DNA of 61,447 nucleotides, the filler included, from an uncultured virus (IMG/VR IMGVR_UViG_3300005239_002421) (Duplodnaviria; Heunggongvirae; Uroviricota; Caudoviricetes). It is 6 parts of one record of this genome, joined end to end, with 100 filler letters (N's around TTAATTAATTAA, not from the genome) between each part and the next. Parts side by side here need not be neighbours in the genome. Positions count along the whole stretch, not along the records: positions 2,238 to 15,308 come from IMGVR_UViG_3300005239_002421; 5 more parts are not named here. One strand, written 5' to 3'. Made by a program: the position numbers and the translations under genes. The stretch's first letter is position 1, and each line of letters begins with the position of its first letter. The notes beneath the pieces are model-generated. The model was not told the origin of the DNA, searched no databases, and saw only the letters and a program-made list of their open reading frames with translations. This document shows positions 13,209 through 56,741 of this stretch, piece after piece.

Positions 13209-13364
13209 TTATTTTTTTGTTTTTTTGTTTTTTTGGGCTTCTGCTACTTTGGATTTTATTGCTCCCGACAATCCTGTGTTTCCTTGAAATCCTTGATTTC
13301 CTATATTGCCTGAATTACCTGACCTTAAACCTAATCCTTTATTTGCTTTACCCGATAATCCCAT
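13209..13364 (-). CDS. Small Gly/Lys-rich protein (51 aa)
   Basis: Read manually: MGLSGKANKGLGLRSGNSGNIGNQGFQG... Confidence 0.45.
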   Translation of the reverse strand: MGLSGKANKGLGLRSGNSGNIGNQGFQGNTGLSGAIKSKVAEAQKNKKTKK

Positions 13365-15308
13365 TATTTTCTTCCTAAAAAGATTCCTAACAGAATACCT
13401 GCTAGTCCTCCTATTAACATTGAATTATCACCTTTTTTCTTTACTTCGCCACCTTTTGCATAACTTATTCTATCTAATCTTTTTCCTAATTCTTCTTCAT
13501 CATTTTTCCACAAATAAAACATTTCTTTGGCTAAATCTTCTACATCTTCATCTTCTGCCAACTCATCTCTATTCCAACTTACAACCTCTACTCCATCTCT
13601 ATATATAAAAAAATCTCCTAATTCTCCATCTGCTCCATCTCCATAGGGGTTTCCCTCTATTGTAATCTTACCACCTTTAGCAAAACTCCCAACATACTTA
13701 TCATCTAAATATCTAAATTTTCTTGTAATTCTATATCCGTTTTCTTTTAAGTATTTGATTTCTTTTTTGCATCTTCTAAAGAATCGAATCCTTCGTTATA
13801 TTCATCCCCCTCACTATCTACATATTCAATGTCATACGAATATCGACTATCTAAATCTCCACCTTTAGCAAATCTTCCGATTTTCAATTCTCTTCCTTCT
13901 TTATAGTTATCCCCATCAAACCATTTAGATATTTTATCAATACCTTTTTGTAGTTTTTCTTTTAAATCTTCTATACTATCAAAAGTGAATTTGTCTTGTG
14001 TGTAATCTTCCATATTTCCTGTTCTGTGATAAGGTGCTTCCATATTTACATTACCGGTAAGAACTATAGTATGCTTACCATCAATACCTCTGCTATTATC
14101 AGGATTATAGTAAAATGCTTCTACTTCAAACATAATACTATCATCATCACTTCTTGAAAACATATCTAAATCTTCTGCCTCATCCATATATCCTGCATCC
14201 TGTAAAGAAGAGTAATCAACATTTTCAATACCTCCTAATTCTTTTACTATGTCAGGATATTCTTCTTCAAATCTTTCTTTACCATATTCATAATTTAGAT
14301 TTTCTACTCTTTCTAATTCAGCATCTAAAGTATTTGTAGGTAAAGATTTTCCTGAACCTGTCAAATAGTTCCCGTATGTGAAAAAACGGTATTCATAACC
14401 TCCATCAGTAAAAGGAATAAAGCCATCTCTGCTCTCGTATTCTACTTCTTCTCCTTCTATGTCTTGACCTTCATATTCTTGATTAGCATCTTCTAATACA
14501 TCTTCTAACTCATCTTTTAATACCTCTACTATATCTTCTCTGCTTATAGCTTCTCCACCCTCTGAAAAACCTTGAGGGAATTTAGAACTATATATTTCAT
14601 CGTTATATCGAGATGCATTATCAACAACTCTTACCCAAGTATTAGAATCTTCTATTTCTCTTGCTTTTGAAATTGCTCTTTTTTTATTTGGTGCCTCATC
14701 ATCTAAATGCACTACATCGTAGTTTTCATCGAAATCATAATCATTTTCGTTGTTGTAAACTCTAATAATATATTCTTTGTTTTCATCTAAATCCCCACCT
14801 TTTTCAAAACTTCTAATCACGAAAATATCTCCATCATTAGACTTGTATTTCATTTTAGGGAAATACTTTTGTTTAGCTTCTTCAAAATTATCTCTATTCT
14901 GTCTTTCTGAATCTACAAAAATCACTTTATAATTATCTCCTGCTAATACTTTTATTTCTTCTACATCATAATCATAATCTCCTCCGGACTGCCAATCATC
15001 TCCGAACTTTTGCTTTGCTAAATCAATTAAACCGTTTTCACTAACAAAATCATCTGTTGATGTATAATTTCCACTTAAATCGTTTCCTAAACTGCCACCT
15101 TTTGCATATTTAGATAAATCGTATTCTTTTACTGTTCCTCCCTTTTTATAGTTTTGAAAATAATGTCCATCATATTCGTTGTAATTGTTTATTGATAAAT
15201 CTCTTCCCAAAGCCTCATAGTCAAAATAAAATTCAGGATTTGAAACACCTTCAATACCACCTACATTATCAACATAATTTTCTCCTAATTCGTAATCTCC
15301 ATCATATT
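13364..15308 (-). CDS. xxGG-repeat polyprotein A: ArdA-like segment, acidic modules, C-terminal TM (5' truncated; -1 shift near 13765)
   Basis: Frame open to the gap with YFDYEALGRDL; 7 [YF]xxGG motifs; -1 frame continues to LIGGLAGILLGIFLGRK. Confidence 0.75.
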
Positions 15309-15408
15309 NNNNNNNNNNNNNNNNNNNNNNNNNNNNNNNNNNNNNNNNNNNNTTAATTAATTAANNNNNNNNNNNNNNNNNNNNNNNNNNNNNNNNNNNN
15401 NNNNNNNN

Positions 15409-15515
15409 CTTTTATAATCTCTTAATCTTTCATTAGCACTAAAAAGTTGCCAAATAAGAATAAATAGAATTATAATACATATAGTTAGTGCATTATTTTT
15501 AAGTTTAGAAAACAT
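15409..15515 (-). CDS. Membrane protein, N-terminal fragment (spanin-like position)
   Basis: MFSKLKNNALTICIIILFILIWQLF.. directly after the holin-like gene; runs into gap. Confidence 0.4.
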
Positions 15516-15730: not shown

Positions 15731-16402
15731 TTAATTCATAATTCTAACATCATATATATTCTGATTGGCGGCTATTATTCTTCTATTAACCTCATCCCAA
15801 TTTATAATTTTAAATATATTTTTGATGTATTTCGTTCTGTCTGCATCGTATTTCAAATAATATGCGTGTTCCCACACATCTATTCCTAATAAAGGATATG
15901 ATTGATACTCAGGCATATATGGGTTGTCTTGATAAGGGGTAGCTAGTATATTTGTACTACCATCTCTATTCATTACCCACCATACCCATCCTGAGCCGAA
16001 TCTTTTCTGCGATGCTTCAATAATAAATTCTTTAAATTGTCCGTAAGTACCAAAGTCTTGAATAATTTTAGCCAATGAAACACCGTGTGGTGGATTTGAC
16101 TTTTTTGATGGATTAGGTTTAAGCATTTTCCAAAACATAGAATGATTTACATAACCTCCTCCATTATCTCTAATTTCAATTGGGTATCTATCTATGTTCT
16201 GCATTACTCTAATAACCGGGTCAGTAATATCATATTTGTCTACTGCTGCGTTAAACTTTTTTAAATACCCTAAATAATGTTTATTGTAGTGTATTTGCAT
16301 AGTTTCCTCATCAATATATGGCTCTAAACCGTTATATTTATAAGGAAGCCTTACAGGAGAAAAATGTATTAAATCATAGTCATCATATTTATTCATTTTC
16401 AA
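15731..16402 (-). CDS. sodA: Fe/Mn superoxide dismutase (Mn-type signature)
   Basis: LEPYID..HYNKH..GGYVNHSMFW..FGSGW..QDNP..DVWEHAYY. Confidence 0.95.
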   Translation of the reverse strand: MKMNKYDDYDLIHFSPVRLPYKYNGLEPYIDEETMQIHYNKHYLGYLKKFNAAVDKYDITDPVIRVMQNIDRYPIEIRDNGGGYVNHSMFWKMLKPNPSKKSNPPHGVSLAKIIQDFGTYGQFKEFIIEASQKRFGSGWVWWVMNRDGSTNILATPYQDNPYMPEYQSYPLLGIDVWEHAYYLKYDADRTKYIKNIFKIINWDEVNRRIIAANQNIYDVRIMN

Positions 16403-20311: not shown

Positions 20312-22054
20312 ACCACCTTTAGCGAAATCATCATCTTGCTCTCTATCTTCTTGAGCATCATAATAATCTAAAGTTTCATTATTTAAAGTATCAATCAGAA
20401 TAACATCCATTTTATATAAATATTTACTTCTTTCATTTATAAACTCATCGTATGCTTCATCATAATCATTTCCTCTCCATAAATCATTTCTGCCATCAAG
20501 AGAAACAAGATATCTTCCATCTACCATCCCACCTTTAGCATATTTATTTTTCCATTTATTATTGGCGGTTTTTATATAATCTTCCTTGATGGCTATTTCT
20601 TCAAAATTATCATCATCAACATTATATCCGTGTCGTTCAAATTTTTCTTTCAAATCTTTATCAGTATATCTAACTCTTTTATCATAAGTATATTTAGGGT
20701 CTTTTATTCTGCCGCCTTTTGCATAATCTTCTATAATTACATCATCATAACCTTTTTCTTTCCACTCTTTTGCCAATCTCTCGGCTTCTTCTTCGGTTAA
20801 TTCTTCTCTACCATCTATATCTAAAGGCATATCTCCTACCCACACAATCTTACCACCTTTTGCATAAGATTTTTCATTTACTCTTTTAAGTAAATAAGTC
20901 TGCCAATCTTTCTCATCTTTCGTAAGCATATCTCTTCTACTCTCCCTATTCCAATCCTCTCTAATCTTTCTTCTTTCATCTAAATCAATTCTATCTAAAA
21001 CATAATGAGTGAACCTTTCATAATCTCTATCAAAATCATCATAAGTTTTCATAATCTTACCACCTTTAGCGAACTCTAATTTCTCTTTTTTATAGACTTC
21101 ATATGGAAATACAAATTGAGCAGAATACAACTTCATTTCACCTTTCTTCCAAAGTTCTTTTTCTTTTTCATTAGGTGCAGAAAACTCATCCCAATCACTA
21201 CCTTTTTCGTGCTTTACAAGAGCACTTGTTTGAATAGTATCTTCATCAACATAAAAATCCTCTTCTTTCATATCTGCGTATGAAACAAAATCATTTAAAG
21301 TTTCAAATAAATCTTTTTTATTAGTAAACTTAGTTTTATATGGAAAATCATTTTCACCTAAGTAATATGAATGAAATTGGTCTTGCTCTCCCTCTTCATA
21401 AGAATCTTCATAGAAAGTAACATCAGCACCCTTTATTTGGTATGTTTTTCCTACTTCTCCACCTTCTTCAAGTAAATCCGGATTAACATATTCTTTAGCC
21501 ACCATCATCTTTACGGGTATTTGTCTTTCGACTAAACTATCAACGGCTCCTTGTTCATTATATTCATTACTCATTATATAGCCATCCATACTGCTCCAAA
21601 CTAATCCTTGATTTTCTGCCTCATCCATAAACTCATCATCGCTTAATTCATCAGCATATCTTTTAAATTGATTGTAAGTGAAGAAACCTTCATCTGCATA
21701 CATATCTGCTCTCATATCAATAGCATAAACCCTTTCCTCAATCGTACCGCCTTTAGCAAATTTTGCTTTTTGTTTCTTAGCATCTTGAACGGTTTTGTAT
21801 ATGCCTCCTAAATCTTTCTTGATGTCTTTAATAACATTCTCATTATCCTTAATAGATTTTTTTTCTCTATCAATGCCACTCTCTAAATTGTTAATTTGAT
21901 TTTCAGAACCTGTAATGTCTTTACGAATGCTTTTTATCTCTTCCCTTCCTTCATTGATTTCTTTATCGCCTTTTTTAGCAACATTACCCATAGCTTTAGC
22001 AAGTTCAATTTGACCTCCTCTTTCGTAACTATTATTTCTATTTCCTCTTTTCAT
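20312..22054 (-). CDS. xxGG-repeat polyprotein B (3' end in gap)
   Basis: 8 motifs (YERGG, FAKGG x3, LEEGG, YAKGG x3) separating acidic modules. Confidence 0.8.
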
Positions 22055-22056
22055 AA

Positions 22057-23148
22057 TTATCTTCCTATAAAAAATGCACCAAGTAAAATACCTGCTATCC
22101 CTCCTACAAGTAAAGTTTGATTATTATTATCTTCAGTATTATCAACTTTTTTTGCTTCTACTTTTTCAATTTTATCATCACATTTATCTTTAGTGATAGT
22201 TTCTTTTCTTAAAGCACCTTTTTCCTTCTTTAGTTTAGCAATTTCTTTGTCTTTTTCTCTTCTTAGCTTAACATATCTATCTCTGTCAATTTTACCTTTA
22301 ACAGAACCTCCTCTTGCATATTGTTTTTCTGTATAAAATTCTTTTATGTTATCCTTTAACCCATACTGCTCTTTAAGTTGCTCTTGACTATTTTTACCAT
22401 CATATATTATGTCGCTATTTAACATATAATTTAAATTTTCTACTTCTTTTTCTGCCTCTGCTTTAGATTTATAAAGCATATCCTTATTTGTTGCAAAGAA
22501 ATTTTTATTTTTTGTTCTTCCCTTTATCACATAACCACCTTTTACAGAGCCACCACGAGCCATTTTTCTTTTGCCTTTATCCATTGTAGATACATCTGCA
22601 TACTTTCTTCTGCCCATAGATTTTTCAGTTCCTGCACTTTCTCTCATTCTACTATCTAAAGATTGAGATTTTTTTCCTCTGTTTCTTTCTCCTATGCTTT
22701 CTCTATCTCTGTCATCATAACCTTGAGTTTTACCACCTTCCATAAACATTCTATCTCCATTATCCATAGTTTCTACACTTGAATATGCTCTACGACCTAG
22801 ATTTTTATTAGCTGCTTTGCTTTCATCTCTTCGGTCTTTTAATGTTTGTTTATAATTGCTTTCTCTTCCAAGTCTAGTTCCTAAATCTTCATTTAACTTG
22901 TCGTTATACCCTTGTGGTTTAGCGGTTTCTCCTCCTTTAGCCATCTTTTTCTTATTTGCTATTTGTTGCATATTTAAAGCAAATTGTGCTCTTTCACGAG
23001 TTCTTTCTGAAAAGTCAGTTGGATTATCTTTTACTTTTTTAGCAAAATCTTGAACGGACATACCTGCATCAGTAGCTTGTTTAGTAAACGCACCAACAGT
23101 TCCTTTTTTTTCCATTTCTTTATCTACATTTTGAATCCAATCTGCCAT
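22057..23148 (-). CDS. xxGG-repeat polyprotein C with basic modules and C-terminal TM
   Basis: MAKGG, FMEGG, MARGG, YARGG; duplicated QGY.D..RR.Y..V.TMD module; ends LLVGGIAGILLGAFFIGR. Confidence 0.8.
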   Translation of the reverse strand: MADWIQNVDKEMEKKGTVGAFTKQATDAGMSVQDFAKKVKDNPTDFSERTRERAQFALNMQQIANKKKMAKGGETAKPQGYNDKLNEDLGTRLGRESNYKQTLKDRRDESKAANKNLGRRAYSSVETMDNGDRMFMEGGKTQGYDDRDRESIGERNRGKKSQSLDSRMRESAGTEKSMGRRKYADVSTMDKGKRKMARGGSVKGGYVIKGRTKNKNFFATNKDMLYKSKAEAEKEVENLNYMLNSDIIYDGKNSQEQLKEQYGLKDNIKEFYTEKQYARGGSVKGKIDRDRYVKLRREKDKEIAKLKKEKGALRKETITKDKCDDKIEKVEAKKVDNTEDNNNQTLLVGGIAGILLGAFFIGR

Positions 23149-24877: not shown

Positions 24878-25327
24878 TTAATCGTTAAACCACATTTGGT
24901 CATTATATCCTCCAAAACCTTGTTGATTAAAATTAGAGTATGATTCTCCATCAAATCCTATACTAGTTCTTCCTCTAACGGAGCCACAACTTGCAGGGCT
25001 ATTACTATAATTACCCAAAGAACCACAGTTACCTTGAGATGTTAGTGTTGTAAAGTTTGAACCCGGCATTGGTATTCCCACACCTTGACATCCTTGTGGA
25101 TAGCAAAATCCTGTGTAGGTACAACTTCCATCATCATTATTTGCTCCCGGACTATAATTGTTTGCACTAGAATCAGTACAACCGCTAATAGTATATTCAC
25201 ACGGACAATCAACAGTTGGTGGTGGTGGTGGTGGTGGTACATTTATATTTGCTGCTGCATTAAAGAATTCATCTCTTGAAATGTAAGAGTTAAATCCATC
25301 TTGGTCGTTATTTATTAAAAAAGCCAT
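24878..25327 (-). CDS. Cys-rich GCTD-repeat protein, paralogue of 31602-32060
   Basis: GCTDSSANNYSPGANNDDGSC; ends SNFNQQGFGGYNDQMWFND. Confidence 0.75.
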   Translation of the reverse strand: MAFLINNDQDGFNSYISRDEFFNAAANINVPPPPPPPTVDCPCEYTISGCTDSSANNYSPGANNDDGSCTYTGFCYPQGCQGVGIPMPGSNFTTLTSQGNCGSLGNYSNSPASCGSVRGRTSIGFDGESYSNFNQQGFGGYNDQMWFND

Positions 25328-25345
25328 TTTTTTTTATTTTTTATA

Positions 25346-26119
25346 TTAATAATCTCCCATCATAAAGGTTCCATCAAATCCTCTACTGTAATCAACATTA
25401 ACAGGTGTATTTCCTCCTGTTGTTGGAGTAGTTGGGTTAGAACATCCGACTGTTGCATTAGGATTATAGTTATCTGCCAATGGGTCAGTACATCCTACTA
25501 TTTGAACAGGAGGATATTGACAACTTCCATCATCTGCAACTGCTAAAGAATCATAGTTTAATGCTGAAGGGTCCATACATCCTGCTATTGGCATTGGTGG
25601 TGGATTGTATGCACAAGTACCATTGTCTGATGTAGCATTATAATCAAAATTTAATGCTTGTGGGTCAGTACATCCTAATATAGGAGCAGGTGGATAAAAG
25701 CAACTTCCATCATCAAGTGTTGCTAATGGGTTATAAGTGCTTGAATTTGGGTCTACACAACCTAAAACATCAGCAGGAACTTCAGTAGATGGGTCACCAT
25801 ATTGACATAATGGAAAGCCATTTGCATCTAATATATCAGGCTCTGAATTCGCTAAAGGGTTATAAGTGATTGAATTTGGGTCCATACACCCTACTATAAT
25901 ATTTCCACTACCCGGAACAACAACTTGTCCGGAAGTTGGTAGTGGTGGTACAAATATTGGGTCATCAAGAAGTGGTGGTAACGATGGAACAGTTGGGTCG
26001 ATTGGTGGCAATGTTGGTTCGGTATTGCTTACTATAGCAACCGTTTCATCCTTTTTCTTGTTAAGAAGTAAGTAGGCAGCCACACCGATGCCTAATAATC
26101 CCAATAATTTGTTGTCCAT
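25346..26119 (-). CDS. TM-anchored protein with five GCxD..NY..A..DDGSC-type repeats
   Basis: Repeats read directly; ends RGFDGTFMMGDY. Confidence 0.8.
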   Translation of the reverse strand: MDNKLLGLLGIGVAAYLLLNKKKDETVAIVSNTEPTLPPIDPTVPSLPPLLDDPIFVPPLPTSGQVVVPGSGNIIVGCMDPNSITYNPLANSEPDILDANGFPLCQYGDPSTEVPADVLGCVDPNSSTYNPLATLDDGSCFYPPAPILGCTDPQALNFDYNATSDNGTCAYNPPPMPIAGCMDPSALNYDSLAVADDGSCQYPPVQIVGCTDPLADNYNPNATVGCSNPTTPTTGGNTPVNVDYSRGFDGTFMMGDY

Positions 26120-26125
26120 TTTTCT

Positions 26126-26365
26126 CTATTTTGTTAGTTCTTTCTTTAGTTTTTCAGCATCATTTTCATTAAAACCATCAAGAATTGTTTGCGATGTTCC
26201 GGAAACAGGTGTGGTAGGATTTGTCACATTTGCTACACTACCGTTTGAAATGGCAGTATTTTTAGTAGCAGTTGTGCTTTCTCCTTGTTTACGAGAAAAT
26301 ATCCTGTGAAGGATAAATGTTGCAGCAATGGCTCCGATGATATATGTTAATGGTACTTTTTTCAT
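26126..26365 (-). CDS. Small N-terminal TM protein
   Basis: Single TM segment. Confidence 0.6.
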   Translation of the reverse strand: MKKVPLTYIIGAIAATFILHRIFSRKQGESTTATKNTAISNGSVANVTNPTTPVSGTSQTILDGFNENDAEKLKKELTK

Positions 26366-26565
26366 TACTATTTTTTCTTTCTAGCTTTTTTTTCTTCAAC
26401 TACAGGCTCTTCTACAACAGGTGGTGGTGGAGGAGGTGCCGGTAATTCTCCTGTTAAATCTACAGTTCCATAAGTATTAATTTCTTTTACTCCCCATCCT
26501 AATGCTTTATAATGCTTAAACATTCTGCTTTTTTGTCTTGCGTTCATAGTTTTTAATTTTTTTAA

Positions 26566-26820
26566 TTATTTCCAAAATTTAACTACTGCGGTAATTATAA
26601 TACCCCATATTGTAGTTACGGCAGTTACTCCTCCCATAATTTTGTTTTTAAATGTTTTATCTTCGGCTATGTACTCAGAGTGCTCATTTACTTGTTCAAT
26701 CAATCCTTTTTGACCAAACTCTGCATCACCACATACCGCATTAGCTAATCTCTCAATAAGAACACTTTGTTTAGTTAGTTCTTGCTTTATGTATGTTATA
26801 TTCTCTTTTTGCGTTGCCAT
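26566..26820 (-). CDS. Coiled-coil protein with C-terminal TM (holin/XhlA-like architecture)
   Basis: Likely start MATQKEN; G..EFGQKGLIEQV then TM. Confidence 0.5.
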   Translation of the reverse strand: MATQKENITYIKQELTKQSVLIERLANAVCGDAEFGQKGLIEQVNEHSEYIAEDKTFKNKIMGGVTAVTTIWGIIITAVVKFWK

Positions 26821-26822
26821 AA

Positions 26823-27101
26823 TTACATTGCTACTACTATACCTGTGCTTCCTGCTCCACAAGCAATATCCAATACACCTAAATTTCTATTATCAGGATT
26901 TTGGATTGTTATACTTTCATTTGCTTTTAAAACAATATTATTTGAATCATCCCCTCCTATACTTCCTGTGCCTAGAATAGTAATTCCATTGGCTCCCGTA
27001 TTATCTGTTTTACATAAGACAGAAATATATGTTATTCCCATACTTAATGTTGTAGATACCGTGTCAGTTGCGGCTAGGGTTCTTGTAAATATTGCACTCA
27101 T
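26823..27101 (-). CDS. Small all-beta protein (spike/penton-like domain candidate)
   Basis: Alternating beta pattern, IVLKANESITI. Confidence 0.45.
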   Translation of the reverse strand: MSAIFTRTLAATDTVSTTLSMGITYISVLCKTDNTGANGITILGTGSIGGDDSNNIVLKANESITIQNPDNRNLGVLDIACGAGSTGIVVAM

Positions 27102-27102
27102 A

Positions 27103-27543
27103 TTATCCTATATTTCCTAATATCTCTTCAGGCTTATCGAATAGCCAATTAAAAGATATTTGTTTAAAAAATTCGTTGTTGTGATAGGCTAACATATATA
27201 CTTTATTAGCATCGCTATCTTTTGTCACTATTATAGATGACATTTCGTTTACATCTGTGTTTTTTTCTTCTGCTAATCTTATAATAGATTGTTGTAAAAA
27301 AGGTGCGGTTAAAAACTCTCTTTGTTTAAAGTCAAACTTTACATCTAAAATTTCATTGAAAGTTAAGTCACTTATTTTTTCATAATCTTTCATATAAGAA
27401 TATAAAACACTTTTCCCGTTAAACTTAATAACGAGTTGAATGTTTTTTGCATCACAATTGTTTTTATCAGACAACCTTTTTAGAGCATTGCTCATTATGT
27501 CAATCGCTGAATTTACTATTTGTGCTTTTAGTGCCGTGTTCAT
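27103..27543 (-). CDS. Hypothetical protein
   Basis: 146-aa ORF; TATTTTTG element at 27561-27568. Confidence 0.65.
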   Translation of the reverse strand: MNTALKAQIVNSAIDIMSNALKRLSDKNNCDAKNIQLVIKFNGKSVLYSYMKDYEKISDLTFNEILDVKFDFKQREFLTAPFLQQSIIRLAEEKNTDVNEMSSIIVTKDSDANKVYMLAYHNNEFFKQISFNWLFDKPEEILGNIG

Positions 27544-27595
27544 CTTCTAGTTTTTATTTTCAAAAATAATAAAATTATTCAATTTATCCATTTTT

Positions 27596-28081
27596 TTAGC
27601 CTATAAAATCACTTGTAGATGCCGTAACATCAATAGGTAAATTATTTATAGTTACTATTCCTGCTCTTACATCTAAGCTACCTCTAAGAGTTGCCATTCC
27701 CGGTGTCTTATCTACTAATTGATTTATTATTGTTGCAATACCTAATGATAATGATAAATTAGTGTCTGCATTCGCTACTACAGGAATTATTACTGAACCT
27801 TTTGCAGGAATATTATATTCTTTATCATCAGATGATTTTGCAACTATCTTATTATCAATAATTAAATCAAATTGATACCTTTTTACTTTTATATTAAAAT
27901 CCGCAGTATTTGTGAATTTCATTTGAACTTCTATTTTAGTATTGTTATTAGATGTGCCTAAATATGTTACATTTTTTATCTTATATCCAAATGCTGATAG
28001 CAAATTTCTTTGTCTATTTATATAAGTTGCAAATGCAATACCGGCAGCCCCTAAAAGTGTAATAAACCAATACTTTTTCAT
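27596..28081 (-). CDS. LEA_2/WHy-domain membrane protein
   Basis: N-terminal TM, then F.N...FNIKV..Y.FDL.ID..I...IPAKGSVIIPV. Confidence 0.7.
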   Translation of the reverse strand: MKKYWFITLLGAAGIAFATYINRQRNLLSAFGYKIKNVTYLGTSNNNTKIEVQMKFTNTADFNIKVKRYQFDLIIDNKIVAKSSDDKEYNIPAKGSVIIPVVANADTNLSLSLGIATIINQLVDKTPGMATLRGSLDVRAGIVTINNLPIDVTASTSDFIG

Positions 28082-28087
28082 AGTTAT

Positions 28088-28846
28088 TTAGTCGTTATAA
28101 AATTCCGGTTTTGGTCCTGATGCTTTAATTGCCATATATCCTAATGTTGCAACAACTCCTGCCACTAAGACCCATCCAATAATTTTAGTTGTGCCATCTC
28201 CACCTAATGATGCTTGAGTAGTTGTAGTGGTTGTTCCTGCATTTACATTTGCATTAGGGTCAAATTGTGGAGCCTGTACCCCCGGTTTTGTCATATTTAC
28301 TCCTGTTGAAAACCCTTTATTTATACTATCAAATATATTACCTATTGTACTCCAAGTATTTTGTTTTCTATCATCAATTTGTGCTTGAGTTAAACAAGTA
28401 TTTCTTGAACTAGAAGTCCATCCTGCCGGTTGCTGACCTTTTGGAAATTGTTGACTGATTGGCATACCATTTTGGCAAGTATGATAAGTTCTCATACCAT
28501 CTCCACCAAAAATTCCTGATATAAATCCACCTCCACTAGAACTCTCTTCTGTAGCAGGAACTGTTCCTAAATCTACAGGAGGTAATTCACCTCCATCAAC
28601 AGTATCGTTATCTCCTCCACCAAATATTCCGCCTAAAAATCCGGGGTGATTACTCCAAGCATCATCTTGTACCTCTCCTGTAAAACTATTGTATTCAGCA
28701 GTACCATTTAATCCATCTCCTTGGTCAACAGAATTCGCTTGAGTATCAGGATTACCTCTTAATCCAAAAGGATTTGGTAAAGGATTATGAAATGTATAAT
28801 CTTGGGAATCTCCAAAGAAGTTTAAATATTTATCTTCACTTTTCAT
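28088..28846 (-). CDS. Gly-rich protein with C-terminal TM
   Basis: SFTG and WSNHPGFLGG motifs; TM near the end. Confidence 0.7.
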   Translation of the reverse strand: MKSEDKYLNFFGDSQDYTFHNPLPNPFGLRGNPDTQANSVDQGDGLNGTAEYNSFTGEVQDDAWSNHPGFLGGIFGGGDNDTVDGGELPPVDLGTVPATEESSSGGGFISGIFGGDGMRTYHTCQNGMPISQQFPKGQQPAGWTSSSRNTCLTQAQIDDRKQNTWSTIGNIFDSINKGFSTGVNMTKPGVQAPQFDPNANVNAGTTTTTTQASLGGDGTTKIIGWVLVAGVVATLGYMAIKASGPKPEFYND

Positions 28847-28854
28847 ATCTTTTT

Positions 28855-29502
28855 TTATTTTTTCATTATAAGATAGATAGCAACTGCCCCTAATACTAAT
28901 GCTATAGTTTTATCTACACACTTTTCTTCTCCTTGAATTTTAAAAGGTACTGTATATTGGTCATCTCCACATCCACTTGAAACTACCACAGGTGCCGGTT
29001 GAGGTACTACTATTACGGGCACAGGTACCGTGTCATCAATTACTTCCGGTTCAATTACGGGCTCAGGTGCAAGAACACTAACTTCTGTAGCAAAAAAGAA
29101 ACCTGTTGTTCCATCATCCCAAAGTATTTCGTATCTCTCAGGAAAAGTTTTTTGAATATTTCCTGTTACTGTACCTCTATTAATAATCATTGGTGGGCAA
29201 GGTGGAGCAAAACATTGTACTTGAACCGAAATTCCTACTCTTTGTCCTTTAACTAATCTCATTGGCTTAACTCCTCCTGTATTAGGTACAGGTGGTAGCA
29301 CATATCCTATATCATTAGCTATTTGTTCAGCAGTTGAGCCCGGAGCAGGTAATCCTGCCGCTATAGGTGCTCCTGTAGGTATAACTCCTCTATCTACGAT
29401 AAAATTTCCTCCATTATCTTGTGGACATCCCCCGTATATAGCATCACAACTAATTCCGTTAAAAGTTTCTCCTGATTGATTGAACCATAATGTATTTTCC
29501 AT
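28855..29502 (-). CDS. Cys/Pro-rich protein with C-terminal TM
   Basis: Starts MENTLWFNQSG; QCFAPPCP. Confidence 0.7.
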   Translation of the reverse strand: MENTLWFNQSGETFNGISCDAIYGGCPQDNGGNFIVDRGVIPTGAPIAAGLPAPGSTAEQIANDIGYVLPPVPNTGGVKPMRLVKGQRVGISVQVQCFAPPCPPMIINRGTVTGNIQKTFPERYEILWDDGTTGFFFATEVSVLAPEPVIEPEVIDDTVPVPVIVVPQPAPVVVSSGCGDDQYTVPFKIQGEEKCVDKTIALVLGAVAIYLIMKK

Positions 29503-29512
29503 ATTCTTTTTT

Positions 29513-30812: not shown

Positions 30813-30813
30813 A

Positions 30814-31308: not shown

Positions 31309-31365
31309 ATTCTATTTATTTTTTAAAATATTTTTGATAAGCTAGTAAACCAATTACACCGGCAG

Positions 31366-31578: not shown

Positions 31579-31601
31579 ATCTTCTGTTTTTTCGTTAATT
31601 A

Positions 31602-32060: not shown

Positions 32061-32207
32061 ATTTTTTTTTTTTTATAATTATTTAATTAAAGGAAAGAGA
32101 AAGGGGANNNNNNNNNNNNNNNNNNNNNNNNNNNNNNNNNNNNNNNNNNNNTTAATTAATTAANNNNNNNNNNNNNNNNNNNNNNNNNNNNNNNNNNNNN
32201 NNNNNNN

Positions 32208-37808: not shown

Positions 37809-38639
37809 TTATCTACTTGCTTTCAAATTAGGTGTACTATTCTGAGTGCAAAATTTATTTCTTTCAAAATTTGTTATAAACTGATTTAAAATGTCAAATC
37901 TTTCTTTATTTTGAGGTGTTGGAGTGTCCTTAAATGTTGTAAGGAAACTTTGATAAGCCTCTATTCTTGGATAACCAAGAGCCAAATAAATTAATAATCC
38001 ATTCAAATCTGCTTCTGTTTCATCTTCCATATTCTCATTCAAATAAAAATGAGAAAACTCGTGTAATAGAATTGCCATTCTCATTGGAACAGTAAACTTT
38101 TTATAATGTGCTTTGCTTACTTGTATAATTCCTTTTGACTGACTAATTCTTGCAGGGGTTTGTATTACCAAACCTCTTTTTGTTCTAATATCATCAAAGT
38201 AATCTATTCTAAAATTACCCTCATCTGAGATATATGTGCTTCCGTTTGGAAACTTTCCTGCACTTAATATTCCTGCGTTGTCTGAGAATTGTTGAGCAAA
38301 ATTTGCAAAATCTCTTATTTTTGGATTACTCCAATCAACACAATCCATTTTTCTTTCTAATGGTCTAGCATCTATTTTTACAACTTTAAATGATGCATCT
38401 TGACCCTTTTTCAAATTACCGTTAGCTTTATTATATACACTTATAAGTGCTTCATAAGGAGATAAAGGCATTCTAACGAAGAATCTTTGCTTACCATCAA
38501 TAGTTGCATATCTATTAGTATAATCAGTATTAGGCTTATTAATATCCTTAACTACTATCTGAATTTTTTGAGGACTATTTGTTACGACCTCTATCATAAT
38601 AGTTAACGATTTTTGCTTTGTTTTAAATAAAATATTCAT
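37809..38639 (-). CDS. Zinc metallopeptidase (HEXXH), candidate virion maturation protease
   Basis: ILLHEFSH..ETEAD zincin pattern, located in the structural module. Confidence 0.75.
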   Translation of the reverse strand: MNILFKTKQKSLTIMIEVVTNSPQKIQIVVKDINKPNTDYTNRYATIDGKQRFFVRMPLSPYEALISVYNKANGNLKKGQDASFKVVKIDARPLERKMDCVDWSNPKIRDFANFAQQFSDNAGILSAGKFPNGSTYISDEGNFRIDYFDDIRTKRGLVIQTPARISQSKGIIQVSKAHYKKFTVPMRMAILLHEFSHFYLNENMEDETEADLNGLLIYLALGYPRIEAYQSFLTTFKDTPTPQNKERFDILNQFITNFERNKFCTQNSTPNLKASR

Positions 38640-40419: not shown

Positions 40420-41169
40420 TTAACCCTGTAATGCACGAGCAACTCCTTGACCAAGAACAATCTTGTCTTGTCTTACAACATTTGGATTACCATAACCACG
40501 AGCAATTGAATTGCCTGTTAGAGCACGACCTTGAGAAACAGTTTCAGATGGGAACAAGTAGACTTTTAAAGTCGCTTTTGCTGCAATACTGTTAACTGTT
40601 AATGTAGTAAAGCCATCCCACTTATAGGTATGCTTTAATACAGTAATGTCTGTTTGGTTTTGGTAAGGGTCAATTGTAGGAACAAGAGTTTTTTGTTGTT
40701 GATTACCATTAGAGTCAACTACTTTTACTACGATAGTTTCTAGGACCTGTGTTGAGCCTCCATCACTTTGTAGGTAAGTTAATCCAACCACGAATGGTTT
40801 AGATGAACTTTGCCATAAAAATTCAAGATAAGTTACACCTGAAATAGCCATATTATATAGGATATTTGCCGTGTTACCTGCTTCACCTGCCGGAATACCT
40901 CCACCTGCTGCGATTGCGGTTACCTTAGTTATCGTGTTATATGCTCCACCAATTTCAACAGATGCTACATCTGCTGCCGTAGAGTTATATAATGAGATAA
41001 TGTAAGGTTGTGATGAACTAGCATCAGCCGAACCCATTGCGTTTAAGTATTCTTCTTCAGAACCACCAAAGTCAAAAGCATCATCCCAATCATTTACACC
41101 ATTAGCTGACATAAATTCGTTTGAAATGTTTTCTTCTGCATCAGAGAAATAACGGTTTAAATTTTCCAT
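40420..41169 (-). CDS. Putative major capsid protein (single beta-sandwich/jelly-roll-like) with acidic N-terminal propeptide
   Basis: Beta-rich; high-expression-type codons (GCT, CGT, AAC); own promoter and terminator; near the packaging ATPase; has a paralogue. Fold is inferred, not computed. Confidence 0.6.
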   Translation of the reverse strand: MENLNRYFSDAEENISNEFMSANGVNDWDDAFDFGGSEEEYLNAMGSADASSSQPYIISLYNSTAADVASVEIGGAYNTITKVTAIAAGGGIPAGEAGNTANILYNMAISGVTYLEFLWQSSSKPFVVGLTYLQSDGGSTQVLETIVVKVVDSNGNQQQKTLVPTIDPYQNQTDITVLKHTYKWDGFTTLTVNSIAAKATLKVYLFPSETVSQGRALTGNSIARGYGNPNVVRQDKIVLGQGVARALQG

Positions 41170-43451: not shown

Positions 43452-44270
43452 TTATGTTAGGAAATATTGCTGCCTTATTCTACCCCTAACTTGTCTAATA
43501 GCTTCATCTCTATCAATTTTAGAGCCATCACTTAAACTTTTTTTATTAATAGCAGGTTTTACTACGGAATTAAAATTTTTAGATAAGTATTCATCTATTC
43601 CATTATTTATAATTGCTTCAGACATTTTTCCTTTTAATTTTTCTTCATCTAAATCTACATACATAAAATATCTAGGATTATCATTAAAATACTGTGTGTT
43701 TACTATGTTTTCAGCTATACTAAACATTTCGTATTTATCAGGAAATTTATTTCTATGTCTTTCAATACTATCTGAGTTTTTATGAAACCTCAACCAATTA
43801 GCATTTTGCCATACTTTAGTTGTTATTCTTCCAATACTCTGAAAATGCATAATAATATCTAAGTCTGTGTGTCTGTTGGAGCAAATAGCACCTACAATAT
43901 CTGTTGGAAGATGGTCACCTACATACTTATTAATGTCCTCAATCAATAACATACCCCCTCTAAAATAGTGTAGTATATCCCATAATTGATTTGCTATTTC
44001 TTTTAAAGTAAGTCTTATTCCTGTCTGCTCATTAAAAGGTCTTACCCTTCTTATTTCTGCGGTAGGCATAACAGAAAATCTTACTAAATCTTTCATAGAT
44101 ATAGCTTTATAATCTACAAACTCATCATTAACATCTAAAATTAATACTCTACGAGGAAGAACCCCTTTTGATGGATTTCCATAAACATAGGATTCAATAA
44201 GTATTTTAGTTTGATAGGTTTTACCAATCCCTTTTTTTCCTACTGCCATTCCTAGCTTTGGTTCTCTCAT
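43452..44270 (-). CDS. FtsK/HerA-superfamily genome-packaging ATPase (A32/P9-like)
   Basis: Walker A GKKGIGKT, ILDVNDEF, Walker B LLIEDI, arginine-finger region NRHTDLDIIMHFQS..VWQNA; 272 aa, no nuclease domain. Confidence 0.8.
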   Translation of the reverse strand: MREPKLGMAVGKKGIGKTYQTKILIESYVYGNPSKGVLPRRVLILDVNDEFVDYKAISMKDLVRFSVMPTAEIRRVRPFNEQTGIRLTLKEIANQLWDILHYFRGGMLLIEDINKYVGDHLPTDIVGAICSNRHTDLDIIMHFQSIGRITTKVWQNANWLRFHKNSDSIERHRNKFPDKYEMFSIAENIVNTQYFNDNPRYFMYVDLDEEKLKGKMSEAIINNGIDEYLSKNFNSVVKPAINKKSLSDGSKIDRDEAIRQVRGRIRQQYFLT

Positions 44271-51349: not shown

Positions 51350-52965
51350 CTACTTTAATGTTGTTAACTTCTTTAAGTTTTTATCAATCAATTTTTGTAT
51401 TGACTCTACCCTGAATGAATTAATTCGTTTTTCATCTGATGTTACACTAGCATCTAAATTTTCTAAACTTACTTTTAATTGATTATAAAGATAGTCCAAA
51501 CTAAAATTAACTTTTAGTGATTCATCTGACTTTAATTTTTTGACTTTTCCTCCTTTTTTCATACGAGATTTTGCTCTAACTCTATCTGCTTTGCCCGATG
51601 AAATAGCACCAAAGTATCTTTTCTGTTTATCAGTTAATTGCTTTCCATTTGCAATACCATCATCTAGTATTTGTTTAGCTTTTGTAGGTGTAAGCCCTCC
51701 TTTTTTAAACTTTCCTTCGTTGTCAATATAATATAAATCTCCTTCATATTCAAAACCTATAGCTTCTTGACCCCATTTTCTAGCCCATTCTTTTACTTTA
51801 GAAACTACTTTTGCTTCATTCTTACTCCAATCCTTTTCATTAGCAAATACTGATACTTTAACTATATCCTCTTCTATTATTTCTCCTGACTGAGATTTGT
51901 AACCTCCATCTGTTTCGGTTTCAGTATATCCTCCAAATTCATTTGCTACATAGTTCTCTACTTCTTTAACTCTACCTTCTAATTCTTCTTCAGATATTTT
52001 ATCTCCTACATTAGATGTAGATGGGACATAAATAACAAAATTCTTATCAAATTTAAATTCTTTTGACAAGGCACCACCTTTCTCATAAGGACTTGATACC
52101 CAAAGTTCTCCTCCTTTTTCCATCTTCAATTCCTTTTCATCTACTTTGGCTGCCTTACCTCCCATTACCGCACTATACACCCTAGCTTGAGCCCATTGCT
52201 CTTTTGATTTAACATTAGGTCTAACACTCGATGGATTAGTTTTATAGGCTCCTATGCCTTTATTGTATATTTTTTGAATTCCTTTTTTTGAAACACCGGT
52301 ATCTTCTGCTATATCCGATAATGAATTTGATGCATCTAAATCATTTCCATACTTTTTATTATATTTTTCTTTCCAAGTCTTTGCCTCTTTGGTCTTACCA
52401 CCTTTTTTAAATTCAGTTGGCTTATTNNNNNNNNNNNNNNNNNNNNNNNNNNNNNNNNNNNNNNNNNNNNNNNNNNNNNNNNNNNNNNNNNNNNNNNNNN
52501 NNNNNNNNNNNNNNNNNNNNNNNNNNNNNNNNNNNNNNNNNNNNNNNNNNNNNNNNNNNNNNNNNNNNNNNNNNNNNNNNNNNNNNNNNNNNNNNNNNNN
52601 NNNNNNNNNNNNNNNNNNNNNNNNNNNNNNNNNNNNNNNNNNNNNNNNNNNNNNNNNNNNNNNNNNNNNNNNNNNNNNNNNNNNNNNNNNNNNNNNNNNN
52701 NNNNNNNNNNNNNNNNNNNNNNNNNNNNNNNNNNNNNNNNNNNNNNNNNNNNNNNNNNNNNNNNNNNNNNNNNNNNNNNNNNNNNNNNNNNNNNNNNNNN
52801 NNNNNNNNNNNNNNNNNNNNNNNNNNNNNNNNNNNNNNNNNNNNNNNNNNNNNNNNNNNNNNNNNNNNNNNNNNNNNNNNNNNNNNNNNNATAAGAATTA
52901 TAATTACCTTTTTCTCTTTCACTATTTCTTATAGCTAATAGTTTTTTCTTTTTTTCTCTATCCAT
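51350..52965 (-). CDS. xxGG-repeat polyprotein D (DUF5824-like and SAM-lyase/DUF3574-like modules); spans gap
   Basis: Frame open from the gap edge at 52426 to 51350; FKKGG x2, MEKGG, YEKGG, MKKGG; probable ATG at 52965. Confidence 0.7.
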
Positions 52966-52968
52966 AAC

Positions 52969-55900
52969 CTATAATACTTTTTTCATTTTTTCAATTTCTT
53001 CCATCAATTCTTTACGCAATCCCTCATCTTTTTCTTCTTTTATCATTGATTCAAGAATATCTATTTGTTCTGCAATTTCTTTGTCAAACTTTTTTAAATC
53101 TACTTTACCACCTTTTTCCATAACTAAATCTCCATCTTCATCAAGGTAATAATCTGCATCTTCATCAGTTTTAACTCTGTTTTTTAATTCCCATTCTATA
53201 GCTTCTTCAGGTGTAACAGAGCCATATTCTCTGTCTAATTCCTCATCATAAAAACCATTGTCATAATCCATAACTACTAAAAACTCAGCAACTCTTTGTC
53301 TTTTATCAGACACTTCTCCACCTTTTGCAAATTGTTTATTATACTCTTCGGCTCTTTTTTCAATTTTATTTTTTATTACAATTGGAGCCTTTTCATAAGT
53401 AATTGTTTTACCCCAATGGCTTATGTCAGCAGGAAATTCTGCTCTGTTTCCTGCATACATATCAATACTCATATTTGGCATAGTATGATGGTTCATTTCA
53501 TACACATCTCCGTGCATTACTATAGTATAATCTCCATCCAAGCCTTGATATATGTCTATTTCATTCATATCTAGCTTTCCTCCATCTTCAAGTAATCTTG
53601 CTCCACTATTGTCAGATTTAACAAAAGAACTACCAACACTTTTTCCTGAAGTAGATTTTATTTGATTTATAAACTCCTGTAATTCTGCCTCACTTAACTC
53701 AAAAGTATTTACATTCCTATTCATCATATCTGAGGATAAGTGCCAACTTGTATTTCCTGATTTGCTTAAAATACCTTTTCCGGTAGGCAGGTGTATCTCT
53801 CCGAATTTCTTACCACTTTGAATTCTTATTTTATCAGTTTTCTCAGTAATTGGATATACTATAAAATCTTGTGGCTTTCTCATACCTTTAACCTTTAAGT
53901 CAAAAGATGTAGTTCCCATTATATTTTTCTTATAGTTTGTTATTGGGGAATCAGTTTCTCCACCTTTTGCATTTATAGGAGTTCCATCATATTTTCTGTT
54001 TTCGCCTTTGGAGTTTTTTAATACCTCAAACCCATATTTATCACTTAACTCATAATCTTCTGTCCACTCATCCTTTCTTTTGTCTTTCATTAAGTCCTCT
54101 AAACTCTTATAGGTTTTATATGTTCCTCCATCGGTTGCCTCCCACTCTTTAGTAATTTCATTATAATCTAATATATAGTTTCCTACTTCTAATTGCTTTT
54201 CTTCAATTAACTCTTCATACTCATCTTTGTCTATACCCCAATAATTTCCTTCAATAAATCCACCTTTTTCAAATGGCTTCATTACTACTCTTTCTCCCAA
54301 AGGATAAGTATCGTTTACTCTATAAACAGTATCAATTAGCAAGTCTTTAGGATTTTCTCCTTTTGGTCGTACTCTATCAATTTCAACTAATCCTACCCCA
54401 TCTTCTTTGAATTTATTCTTTCCCCATTCAATAGCTTCTTTTTCACTAGCAAATCTTTTAGAATCTCCATATTTTAAATTATGTCTGTGCTCTAAAGCTA
54501 CTGCATTGTAGTGAGGTGTAACTCCACCTTCTGCATATTTATTATCTTTTCTTCTGTAAAAATAATCATCTGTATCTTTTATTCCATAAGTATCAACATC
54601 ATCAAAAGCACCTTTCTTTTCAAGTCTTTTTTCTATCATACTTGCACCTCTAAATGTATCAGAACTACCTAAGACCTCTCCATCATAACCATCACCTTTG
54701 TGAACAATATATCTTTTGACTTTGCCTCCTTTTGCATAAGAAGGAGTATATAAATCATATCTATCTGACATTTCATATTCTGATAAATTAATTAATCTTT
54801 GAGTTCGGTCAAGCACATCATCATATAATTCTACTACATCATTATCTGAATACTTATCTTTCTCAACTGATATAACCTCTAATGCTATGTTGCTACCTTT
54901 TTTCTGAACAAAATCTCCTTTTTTAAGGTCTGCTATATTAATCTCTCCACCTTTTGCATAAGAAGTTACCATTGGATATTCTCCTTTGTATGAGTCATCA
55001 GCTATTTCATATAGATATTCTCCATCTTTAGATACTTCAACATACCAAGTTCTTTTAAATTTACTTTTTGCTAATTCTATAATAGATTTTGGTGTGCTAT
55101 TTTTAGGAATATCAATATCTCCCAATAAAAATGCTCTACCTGTATCATCATCTTTAAATCCAACAACTTCTCCTTTGTAAGTCAAATTTTTGTCTATGGT
55201 ACCACCTTTTGCATAGTTTTTAGAAATATTTCCTTTAGTTTTTATCTTAGAATAGGTTTTTCCTAATTCAATTAATTCATCATACTTTTTATTTGCCTCT
55301 TCTAATGTTGCATATTGCCAAACCTCTTGATTTTTACCCGGTCCTTGTCTGCTTATGCCATACTTATAATTTCCTTTATACTTTAATCCATCTTGATTTC
55401 TAAAAGGGTTTAGTTTTACTAAATTAAATATCCATCCATCTTCAAAGTTGGTATATCTTAACNNNNNNNNNNNNNNNNNNNNACTTATATTGGTTCTTCT
55501 TACAGAGCCACCTTTTTCATAGTAATTTTTAACATCATCTTCAGTTATTGTTATATCTTGTCCTTCTCCTTTAATTACCGCCCACATTTCATCAGTTGAA
55601 GAACGATAATTTCTTTGATTTCGCATTTGTTTTTTAGCATATTCTATCGCATCTACCAAAGTTCTTAAATATATATTTCTTCAGATGAGTCCTTAAATTG
55701 ATACGAACCTTCATAAAAACGAACTAAATAACCTTTTTCAGTTTCTCCACCTTTTGCATAATCTTTTATAGCTTTGTCTAGTGAAAGAAAAACAACATTG
55801 GCACTTGCTCTATTAAACTTTGGATTTTTGTCATCATAATCGCTATTTAAATCATTATCCTCAGACATAAAATAAACTCTGCCGTTTTTAATATTTATTT

Positions 55901-56741
55901 TTACTAATGGCATTTCACCCGTAACCATATTATCGGTTTGGACTCTTGCTAACATTTCTCCATCCTTTAGAGGAATATGTGAGTAAAATTTTTCATCATA
56001 ATCATCTAGTTTATACAAATAATAATCTCCAATATATTTTTTATCTATCTTGTGAGCAAAGGCTCCAAAAGATTTTTGACCATTAGATGATTTTTTGCTT
56101 TCCCAAATTTTTCTTGAAGAAGTATTATCTTTTAAGTCTGTAAATATTACCTCTCCTCCTTTTGCCATTTTCTCAATATCTCCAATTAAATAACTTCCTT
56201 TTTCTCCTGAAAATTCTACTTGGTCTTTTTTGTTTTTTGATATGTCAGTAACTTTCATTGTAGTTCCACTATCTTTTATTTTTACTTTATCACCTTCATA
56301 TATAGCACCACCTTTAGCAAAGAACAAGCTATTATCTACCTTGATGTCAGAGAATTTTATATTATCTAAATTTTCTTGTGAAACCTGTTTTATTTCTATT
56401 GGTTTCGTTTCGATTTCTTCTACAGTTTCTACAAACTCTTCATCCGGAGAAGAATCTGTTTCTTGTGCAAATTTTCTTTCATCATCTTCAATTTCATCTA
56501 AAGTGTTTTGGTCTAAATCTTGTTCTACAGGAGCATCAGTATTGAGTTCAACTTCTACAGGAGCATCAGTATTGAGTTCACTTAAAGCCGCATTAATTTT
56601 AATTATTTCTTGAGCATTTTTATCATACATCATTTTATAATCACGGTCATCAAGGTCCTCTGCAAACATTTCTTGTTGCTCGTTTAAATCCTCTAAGATT
56701 TCTAATAAATCTTCTTCTGTTTTATTGGTGTAATCTTCCAT
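52969..56741 (-). CDS. xxGG-repeat polyprotein E (about 1250 aa; tracked ORFs 55665-56741 and 52969-55659 probably one gene)
   Basis: 13 motifs; one extra A near 55677 gives SEENIYLRTLVDAIEYAK and joins the two frames. Confidence 0.75.

What the first reader, a model, noticed from the sequence alone, without database searches (positions are those of the whole stretch)
15140..15308. ArdA-like antirestriction module inside an xxGG polyprotein
Upstream of the tracked start the frame reads YDGDYELGENYVDNVGGIEGVSNPEFYFDYEALGRDLSINNYNEYDGHYFQN and ends at YKKGG. YFDYExxGRDL..GxYF is the C-terminal signature of ArdA DNA mimics that inhibit type I R-M. The domain end coincides with the motif, which supports modular processing.
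Basis: partly seen in the sequence, partly recalled or inferred. Interest (0 to 1): 0.8.

Follow-up and report, generated by a model that had tools for sequence, protein, structure and literature searches.

The report
Anti-restriction cassette in phage polyprotein
An uncultured aquatic bacterial virus carries an ArdA DNA-mimic domain (whole in a near-identical relative) as one swappable bead of a long protein whose beads are joined by a short double-glycine motif; it is likely packed into the particle and possibly cut free to block the host's restriction enzymes, but neither cutting nor activity has been measured.

Summary
Confirmed as ArdA; processing unproven. The 57 residues at 15136-15306 (-) match the Pfam ArdA C-terminus at the curated cut-off and abut an artificial contig linker. 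A 96.7%-identical virus record (G001) fills the gap: a whole 183-residue ArdA (Pfam E 4e-23; predicted fold matches PDB 2W82) between two [YFM]xxGG motifs, at the front of a 768-residue polyprotein. In related polyproteins the module ends at a motif or stop (53 of 53 measurable) where stand-alone ArdA proteins naturally end, though all descend from one capture. Strain differences break at the motifs (17 of 21), so the motif is at least a swap joint. Cutting is not shown: no Ulp1, adenain or C39 protease was found; a core zincin and a core H..GG..E module are candidates, and monomeric ArdA is known to stay active. Best reading: late-made, likely virion-delivered anti-restriction cargo. ArdA inside polyvalent proteins is in print (Iyer 2017); the motif-bounded cassette form was not found in ten paper searches. 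The scan earlier noted a SAM-lyase cassette in this genome and motif-joined cargo polyproteins in tailed phages, but no ArdA cassette.

The parts
15136..15306 (-). C-terminal 57 residues of the ArdA module (domain 3: dimer-interface 'anti-restriction' motif and VF-equivalent strand), ending in the motif
   Evidence: identical over all 57 residues to P0013 and 56 of 57 to P0012/G001
15136..15150 (-). YKKGG boundary motif ([YFM][AEK][KRE]GGx[VI] consensus)
15094..15135 (-). 14-residue peptide module that follows every canonical-length ArdA module
   Evidence: 28 of 28 canonical-length modules ending in a motif, 0 of 26 long ones
15309..15408 (.). Artificial contig spacer; stands for about 987 bases holding the first 138 codons of the polyprotein (12-residue leader ending in a motif, plus ArdA domains 1-2) and the 3' part of the upstream gene
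13364..15306 (-). Rest of the ArdA polyprotein: further motif-bounded modules of unknown function and a C-terminal hydrophobic tail; one-base assembly slip near 13762; about 785 residues in all
13367..13429 (-). C-terminal hydrophobic tail (predicted membrane anchor), shared with two other polyproteins of G001
   Evidence: hydropathy; present in only 6 of 58 ArdA polyproteins at the strict cut-off
15409..15515 (-). 5' part of the upstream gene (225 residues in G001, N-terminal hydrophobic segment, no family match); its stop lies 4 bases before the polyprotein ATG in G001
37809..38639 (-). Core HExxH zincin-like gene near the putative capsid gene; candidate processing protease
   Evidence: 18 of 18 records; HExxH plus downstream Glu; ESM lead DUF4344 metallopeptidase 0.87, a lead only
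40420..41169 (-). Putative major capsid protein used as the group marker (fold not verified here)
   Evidence: 870 homologues, 62 viral loci; no match to PDB, PM2 or FLiP capsid sequences
43452..44270 (-). Core P-loop ATPase, HerA/FtsK-like, putative packaging ATPase
   Evidence: PF01935 E 0.001, below cut-off; found in all 5 genomes compared
20312..23148 (-). Two more motif polyproteins
51350..56741 (-). Two more motif polyproteins (broken by N runs); one module here sits in the ArdA polyprotein in G001

Best explanation
The fragment is the end of a full-length, strongly acidic ArdA DNA-mimic domain that sits as one motif-bounded, swappable cassette at the front of a viral polyprotein, which is likely made late, likely packed into the virion, and possibly cut at the GG motifs so that the freed ArdA would block host type I restriction enzymes as the genome enters. 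Shown: ArdA sequence and predicted fold; cassette borders that match the natural ends of free ArdA; gain, loss and movement of cassettes at the motif; tight coupling to the upstream gene in a block with lysis-type and virion-type genes. Inferred: late expression, packaging, delivery, cleavage (most likely by the core zincin or the core H..GG..E module), dimer formation, a Bacteroidota host and a type I R-M target.
For: Full module in G001: Pfam ArdA profile 1-153, E 4.4e-23, 83 bits; 2W82 residues 3-150, E 2e-7 for the equivalent module of P0013; AlphaFold2 pLDDT 92.9 and Foldseek 2W82 prob 1.00, E 1.5e-6, no other match under E 1. Charge: modules average 25.8% D/E and 7.6% K/R against 16.1% and 17.1% for the rest of the same proteins; net -31 in the G001-type module. 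Tn916 residues Y137, I138, D139, D146, L127, V130 align to Y, F, D, D, I, V (roles from PMC2731889 passages). Borders: 53 of 53 measurable modules end at a motif (49) or stop (4) 22-34 residues after the domain-3 signature, and 50 of 53 begin at a motif (42) or Met (8); stand-alone viral ArdA stop 24-32 residues after it in 52 of 56. No motif inside the first 140 residues of ArdA in 59 proteins, 73 expected. Motif Gly codons vary synonymously. 17 of 21 window-versus-G001 breakpoints in polyprotein DNA lie within 30 bases of a motif, 26% expected; P0186 equals P0185 plus one exact motif-bounded insert. The gene follows its upstream neighbour by 4 bases and precedes a CHAP/DUF2272 gene. Sister cassettes are conflict-type (ART-PolyVal, LPD11, Zeta-like kinase, DUF3574). 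The core single-copy module (18 of 18 records) sits behind the same motif in a head-adjacent 'tape measure' protein of Bacteroides phage BF1-2 and resembles tape-measure and crassvirus cargo-1 regions (leads only). GG|X cutting is established for eukaryotic jelly-roll viruses (PMC6048507 passages).
Against: No GG-cutting protease of known family: Peptidase_C48 0 of 45 records, adenain 0 of 18, C39 0 of 5. Zincins are not known to me as GG|X cutters (recalled). Monomeric ArdA keeps anti-restriction activity, so release is not required. The border counts are not independent: the polyprotein ArdA modules form one clade (43 of 43 rows, SH-aLRT 97, quick tree), partly by construction of the search. 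Dimer-interface acids are only partly kept (3 of 7 exact, 2 more shifted by one) and L134 faces a gap or Pro. The membrane tail is in 6 of 58 ArdA polyproteins only. ArdA is accessory: 6 of 45 related records, 1 of 15 near-complete ones. An ArdA-like phage protein is reported to inhibit EndoV, so the target need not be type I R-M (PMC13091555 passages). No expression or virion data exist here; the capsid fold was not verified.
Confidence: 0.42

Rival explanations
1. The polyprotein is packaged or delivered whole; ArdA works while still fused, and the motif is a recombination joint and flexible linker or a docking tag, not a cut site.
For: Breakpoints cluster at motifs (17 of 21); no known GG protease; monomeric and extended ArdA are compatible with activity; N4 virion RNAP, ArdC and TraC1 travel unprocessed (PMC5512222 section 8); the 14-residue peptide stays next to ArdA in 28 of 28 canonical modules although a motif separates them.
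Against: The motif is constrained at protein level, with a P5 aromatic, P3 Lys and P2' aliphatic preference and free synonymous codons, more than a linker needs; cassette borders reproduce the free protein's own ends; a 12-residue leader ending in the motif precedes ArdA in this clade.
Confidence: 0.28
2. The ArdA cassette acts late in the infected cell or on another target: it blocks host methylation of progeny DNA or another DNA-binding defence or repair enzyme, with no role at entry.
For: Gene position in a late-type block; ArdA has anti-modification activity; ArdA-like gp119 inhibits EndoV; elongated ArdA variants in 24 of 43 tree rows suggest a changing target.
Against: The cassette shares its chain with other polyvalent-type cargo and, in this clade, a membrane tail like that of many virion-type proteins (21 of 130 G001 ORFs); a stand-alone gene would serve a late role as well (inference).
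Confidence: 0.22
3. The cassette is an inactive passenger kept by hitch-hiking.
For: Absent from most related records; some interface residues changed.
Against: Intact, acidic and full-length in 59 polyproteins down to 39% identity; confident fold; moved between N-terminal, internal and C-terminal positions with clean borders.
Confidence: 0.05

Closest known systems
ArdA (Tn916 ORF18, PDB 2W82; Pfam PF07275; McMahon 2009 PMC2731889, passages seen)
   Same: Whole three-domain sequence and predicted fold, acidic composition, domain-3 interface residues Y137/D139/D146 equivalents.
   Different: Known ArdA are stand-alone genes of conjugative elements and tailed phages (133 phage records matched, the 25 listed all stand-alone); here it is a cassette between motifs, with a fixed trailing peptide; activity and dimer untested.
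Polyvalent proteins of phages and conjugative elements (Iyer 2017, PMC5512222; passages and section 8 seen, FTP supplements not seen)
   Same: Many unrelated conflict domains in one chain, ArdA among them; proposed virion delivery and release by zincin peptidases; relatives here carry that paper's LPD11 and ART-PolyVal families.
   Different: There ArdA is found primarily in Firmicutes beside ArdC-N and the peptidase is usually in the chain; here the modules are bounded by one repeated motif that is also the swap point, the zincin is a separate core gene, and the terms 'diglycine' and 'jelly' do not occur in that paper's text. Members of this class may be in its unseen architecture files.
GG|X maturation of mavirus, adenovirus and African swine fever virus proteins by clan CE proteases (PMC6048507, passages seen)
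   Same: A repeated double-glycine motif with a hydrophobic residue upstream, in a virus with a HerA/FtsK-like ATPase and no terminase nuclease.
   Different: No clan CE protease detected here; the hydrophobic residue is one place further upstream; the released parts would be counter-defence cargo, not structural proteins.
Phage P1 DarA/DdrB virion-borne anti-restriction proteins (as summarised in PMC5512222) and T4 internal proteins (recalled)
   Same: Anti-restriction protein made in one cycle, processed, and delivered in the next.
   Different: Different protein families and a tailed head; not DNA-mimic ArdA.
sArdC, small C-terminal ArdA proteins (PMC12548430, abstract and passages seen)
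   Same: The visible 57 residues cover about the same C-terminal third.
   Different: Here the shortness is an assembly gap; the gene encodes the whole ArdA.

Membership tests
ArdA (PF07275) | Full-length sequence match above the curated cut-off | tested here: met
   83 bits vs 27 over profile 1-153 in G001; window fragment at 27.0 bits
ArdA (PF07275) | Three-domain elongated fold of 2W82 | tested here: met
   AlphaFold2 pLDDT 92.9; Foldseek prob 1.00, E 1.5e-6, TM 0.54-0.60, rmsd 5.2-5.6; a prediction
ArdA (PF07275) | Strong net negative charge | tested here: met
   25% D/E, net -30 to -31; rest of the chains 16% D/E. The surface pattern itself was not mapped.
ArdA (PF07275) | Anti-restriction motif (Tn916 126-140) and VF motif in domain 3 | tested here: met
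   Y137, I138, D139, D146, L127, V130 align to Y, F, D, D, I, V; L134 not kept; VF read as YF by eye from the alignment with stand-alone members
ArdA (PF07275) | Conserved acids across the dimer interface (D109, D111, D112, D115, E122, E123, E129) | tested here: inconclusive
   3 of 7 exact, 2 more one residue off
ArdA (PF07275) | Homodimer through domain 3 | not tested
ArdA (PF07275) | Inhibits type I R-M in vivo or in vitro | not testable with these tools
   needs a bench assay
Polyvalent proteins (Iyer 2017) | Two or more disparate conflict domains in one chain | tested here: met
   ArdA plus 6 or more modules; LPD11, ART-PolyVal, Zeta-like, DUF3574 in relatives; the other modules of this chain have no family match
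Polyvalent proteins (Iyer 2017) | Embedded MPTase or ArdC-N partner | tested here: not met
   No such Pfam match in the G001 chain; the zincin is a separate gene. The paper reports MPTase in about 36% only, so this does not exclude membership.
Polyvalent proteins (Iyer 2017) | Carried in the virion and delivered at infection | not testable with these tools
   inferred from gene position and cargo type
Clan CE GG|X-processed viral polyproteins | Virus encodes a clan CE cysteine protease | tested here: not met
   PF02902 0 of 45, PF00770 0 of 18; a very divergent member could be missed by the first-look filter
Clan CE GG|X-processed viral polyproteins | Repeated GG motif at product borders | tested here: met
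Tailless double jelly-roll viruses (Varidnaviria) | Double jelly-roll major capsid protein | tested here: inconclusive
   No sequence or profile match to PDB, PM2 or FLiP; not folded here
Tailless double jelly-roll viruses (Varidnaviria) | HerA/FtsK packaging ATPase and no terminase | tested here: inconclusive
   PF01935 E 0.001 below cut-off; Terminase_6C 0 of 5; inverted terminal repeats in 4 of 45 records; no match to the PM2 ATPase

The most novel reading that the evidence does not exclude
A widespread group of 60-130 kb, probably tailless Bacteroidota viruses runs a protein-level cassette array: one short motif is both the recombination joint and the cut site of a new GG-specific protease (the core H..GG..E module or the core zincin), so counter-defence proteins such as ArdA are captured with their natural ends, shuffled between chains, loaded into the virion and released mature at entry; the elongated ArdA variants are longer DNA mimics aimed at other defences.
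Probability: 0.3. Interest if true: 0.85.

Novelty: new variant of a known kind. Interest (0 to 1): 0.58.

Why it matters
ArdA is normally thought of as a stand-alone gene that must be expressed in the new host. A late, cassette-borne copy would mean a ready-made DNA mimic arrives with the genome. Because ArdA has a solved structure and a simple plating assay, it is the easiest cassette with which to test whether these motif-joined chains are cut, and it validates the rule 'motif to motif = one protein', which turns the many unknown cassettes into a list of candidate counter-defence proteins with exact ends. The same motif and core module occur in cultured Bacteroides phages, so cleavage can be tested without culturing this virus.

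Tried and rejected
Joining the fragment to the open polyprotein end at 20312: rejected; none of the four contigs that run past 15308 lay on 20312-21700 and G001 is colinear with the scaffold order. Reading it as a small sArdC gene: rejected. Clan CE and C39 proteases: not found. Motif enrichment at chain ends as a sign of cutting: not supported at N-termini (12 of 66, 11.3 expected) and weak at C-termini (20 of 64, 10.9 expected, 5 of them the hydrophobic tail's own GG). Core module as a known enzyme: no PDB match by sequence, Foldseek or VIA-align (best Z 2.3), which shows neither absence nor novelty. Capsid fold by sequence: no match. Functions of the other modules of this chain: no PHROG or NCBIfam match, none in cultured phages for the 232-residue module. 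Single-sequence scans of viral contigs with the capsid protein and with P0013 found nothing. No earlier finding of the scan resembles the ArdA module by sequence.

Full report
Observation. The minus-strand frame reads exactly as quoted, 57 codons at 15136-15306 ending in YKKGG. It begins at a 100-base spacer, one of five identical spacers that mark contig joins. Pfam ArdA matches residues 5-49 to the last third of the profile at E 8e-6 and 27.0 bits, the curated cut-off; PHROG 2059 agrees. The stop at 13747 is a one-base slip: contigs of 2 of the 4 runs laid carry an extra T behind 13762, so the chain runs on to a hydrophobic tail ending at 13364.

Closing the gap. No own assembly is held, but the nearest virus record G001 (99,403 bases) is colinear with the window and 96.7% identical over 13859-15308, with 987 bases where the spacer stands. 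Its gene encodes 768 residues: a 12-residue leader ending in a motif, then ArdA at residues 13-195 (Pfam profile 1-153, E 4.4e-23, 83 bits). Database proteins P0012-P0017 have the same start, and P0013 is identical to the window over all 57 residues. P0013 matches PDB 2W82 residues 3-150 at E 2e-7. AlphaFold2 on a 41-row alignment gives pLDDT 92.9 and Foldseek returns 2W82 at probability 1.00, with nothing else under E 1. The gap letters come from a relative, not from the window's own sample, whose contig runs 348 bases into the gap but was not read out.

ArdA features. Modules average 25.8% Asp/Glu and 7.6% Lys/Arg against 16.1% and 17.1% in the rest of the same chains. Against the residues named in McMahon 2009 (PMC2731889, passages), Y137, I138, D139, D146, L127 and V130 align to Y, F, D, D, I and V; L134 is not kept; 3 of 7 interface acids are exact and 2 more are one residue off. 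The dimer could not be modelled.

The motif and the borders. The motif is [YFM][AEK][KRE]GGx[VI]; 35 matches in 3,185 residues of polyprotein frames against 7 in 14,135 other residues, with synonymous Gly codons free. Two searches gave 59 ArdA-bearing polyproteins. A pattern located ArdA in 58 of 59 and the domain-3 signature in 53 of those 58 (5 dropped). All 53 end at a motif (49) or a stop (4) 22-34 residues after the signature, and 50 of 53 start at a motif (42) or Met (8), against about 15% by chance per border. As an independent ruler, stand-alone viral ArdA (61 of 66 distinct frames from 80 loci) stop 24-32 residues after the signature in 52 of 56 measured and start 10-24 residues before the N-terminal signature in 59 of 60. 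So the cassette reproduces the free protein's own ends. These counts are not independent: 43 polyprotein modules (of 58; near-copies left out) form one clade against 46 stand-alone rows (SH-aLRT 97, quick tree), and the search was seeded from one member.

The motif is a swap joint. Of 21 alignment breakpoints between the window and G001 in polyprotein DNA, 17 lie within 30 bases of a motif, where 26% is expected; breakpoints come in pairs, so the nominal p of 3e-7 overstates it. One module sits in a different chain in the two strains, and P0186 is P0185 plus one exact motif-to-motif insert. This is shown; it does not by itself show cutting.

Is it cut? GG|X cutting is established for mavirus, adenovirus and African swine fever virus by clan CE proteases (PMC6048507, passages). 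I found no Peptidase_C48 in 45 related records, no adenain in 18 and no C39 in 5. Two single-copy core candidates exist in 18 of 18 records: an HExxH zincin two genes from the putative capsid gene's neighbour block and an 80-residue module with invariant His and two Glu, itself motif-flanked. The latter has no PDB fold match but resembles regions of tape-measure and crassvirus cargo-1 proteins (leads only; crassvirus gp45 is virion cargo, PMC10172136 passages), matched 52 cultured-phage records, all of Bacteroidota hosts (weak E-values), and sits right behind the same motif in Bacteroides phage BF1-2 gp1, upstream of head genes. Against a need for cutting, monomeric ArdA keeps anti-restriction activity and extended homologues were suggested to be active (PMC3906837, abstract only), and some polyvalent proteins travel uncut (PMC5512222 section 8).

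Timing and virus. In G001 the gene starts 4 bases after the stop of its upstream neighbour, below a superoxide dismutase and a small two-helix membrane gene, above a CHAP/DUF2272 gene; all on one strand. I infer late co-expression, and an anti-restriction protein made late is most useful if packaged. This clade's chain ends in a hydrophobic tail like 21 of 130 G001 frames, but only 6 of 58 ArdA chains have one. The virus group is large (870 capsid homologues; 62 viral loci). ArdA is accessory: 6 of 45 records, each in a frame of 357-1135 codons. Taillessness is inferred, not shown here: weak HerA match, no terminase nuclease in 5 of 5, inverted terminal repeats in 4 of 45, but no capsid match to PDB, PM2 or FLiP. 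A Bacteroidota host is inferred from bin labels (2 long contigs of 5 loci are Flavobacteriales and Sediminibacterium).

What is known. ArdA, stand-alone phage ArdA and ArdA inside polyvalent proteins, mainly of Firmicutes beside ArdC-N (PMC5512222, passages), are known. An ArdA-like phage protein that inhibits EndoV widens the possible targets (PMC13091555, passages). Ten full-text searches returned no paper describing GG-motif polyproteins of this group or an ArdA cassette in them; Yutin 2018 (PMC5894146, passages) has no mention of polyproteins, proteases or ArdA. The library lacks most subscription papers, and the unseen supplements of Iyer 2017 may list such chains, since relatives carry its LPD11 and ART-PolyVal families. 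Earlier notes of this scan report a SAM-lyase-like cassette in this genome and motif-joined cargo chains in tailed phages; I treat them as leads.

Verdict. Real ArdA, new architecture, mechanism open at the cutting step. My odds: ArdA homologue 0.98, active against type I R-M 0.75, virion-borne 0.65, cut at GG 0.5; all steps together about 0.42. New variant of a known kind; interest 0.58.

Noticed in passing
window 15094-15135 (-): A 12-16 residue peptide follows 28 of 28 canonical-length ArdA cassettes that end in a motif, 0 of 26 long ones, and was not found elsewhere in 64 polyproteins, although downstream cassettes are freely swapped. Possibly a pro-peptide, cofactor or loading tag.
   Followed up: partly
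P0037-P0064; L071:1483-2283, L072, L075, L076: Elongated ArdA cassettes of 238-362 residues with an acidic insert or duplication inside domain 3 form their own clade (24 of 43 rows); some stand-alone ArdA of 230-263 residues show a similar duplication.
   Followed up: partly
G001 85888-86475 (L099:9888-10475, -), outside the window: Core single-copy module with invariant His and two Glu (18 of 18 records), shared with head-adjacent 'tape measure' proteins of cultured Bacteroidota phages and flanked by the same motif in BF1-2; no known fold.
   Followed up: partly
window 13762: One-base assembly slip splits the polyprotein; extra T in contigs of 2 of 4 runs.
   Followed up: yes
G001 80749-85881 (L099), outside the window: Three adjacent genes: a vWA-like protein, an HExxH protein with an acidic tail and an AAA-like ATPase, recalling MoxR-vWA-metallopeptidase trios (weak Pfam hits; the family name is recalled).
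   Followed up: no
L082:11355-14873, L087:3280-5637: Related polyproteins carry Zeta-toxin-like kinase and ART-PolyVal ADP-ribosyltransferase cassettes.
   Followed up: no
window 15731-16402 (-): Fe/Mn superoxide dismutase directly upstream of the small membrane gene and the gene preceding the ArdA polyprotein.
   Followed up: no
window 24878-40294 (-): Many small proteins with a terminal hydrophobic helix and a second recurring motif of the aromatic-x-Asn-x-x-Gly type (seen), distinct from the GG motif; may mark a second processing rule.
   Followed up: no
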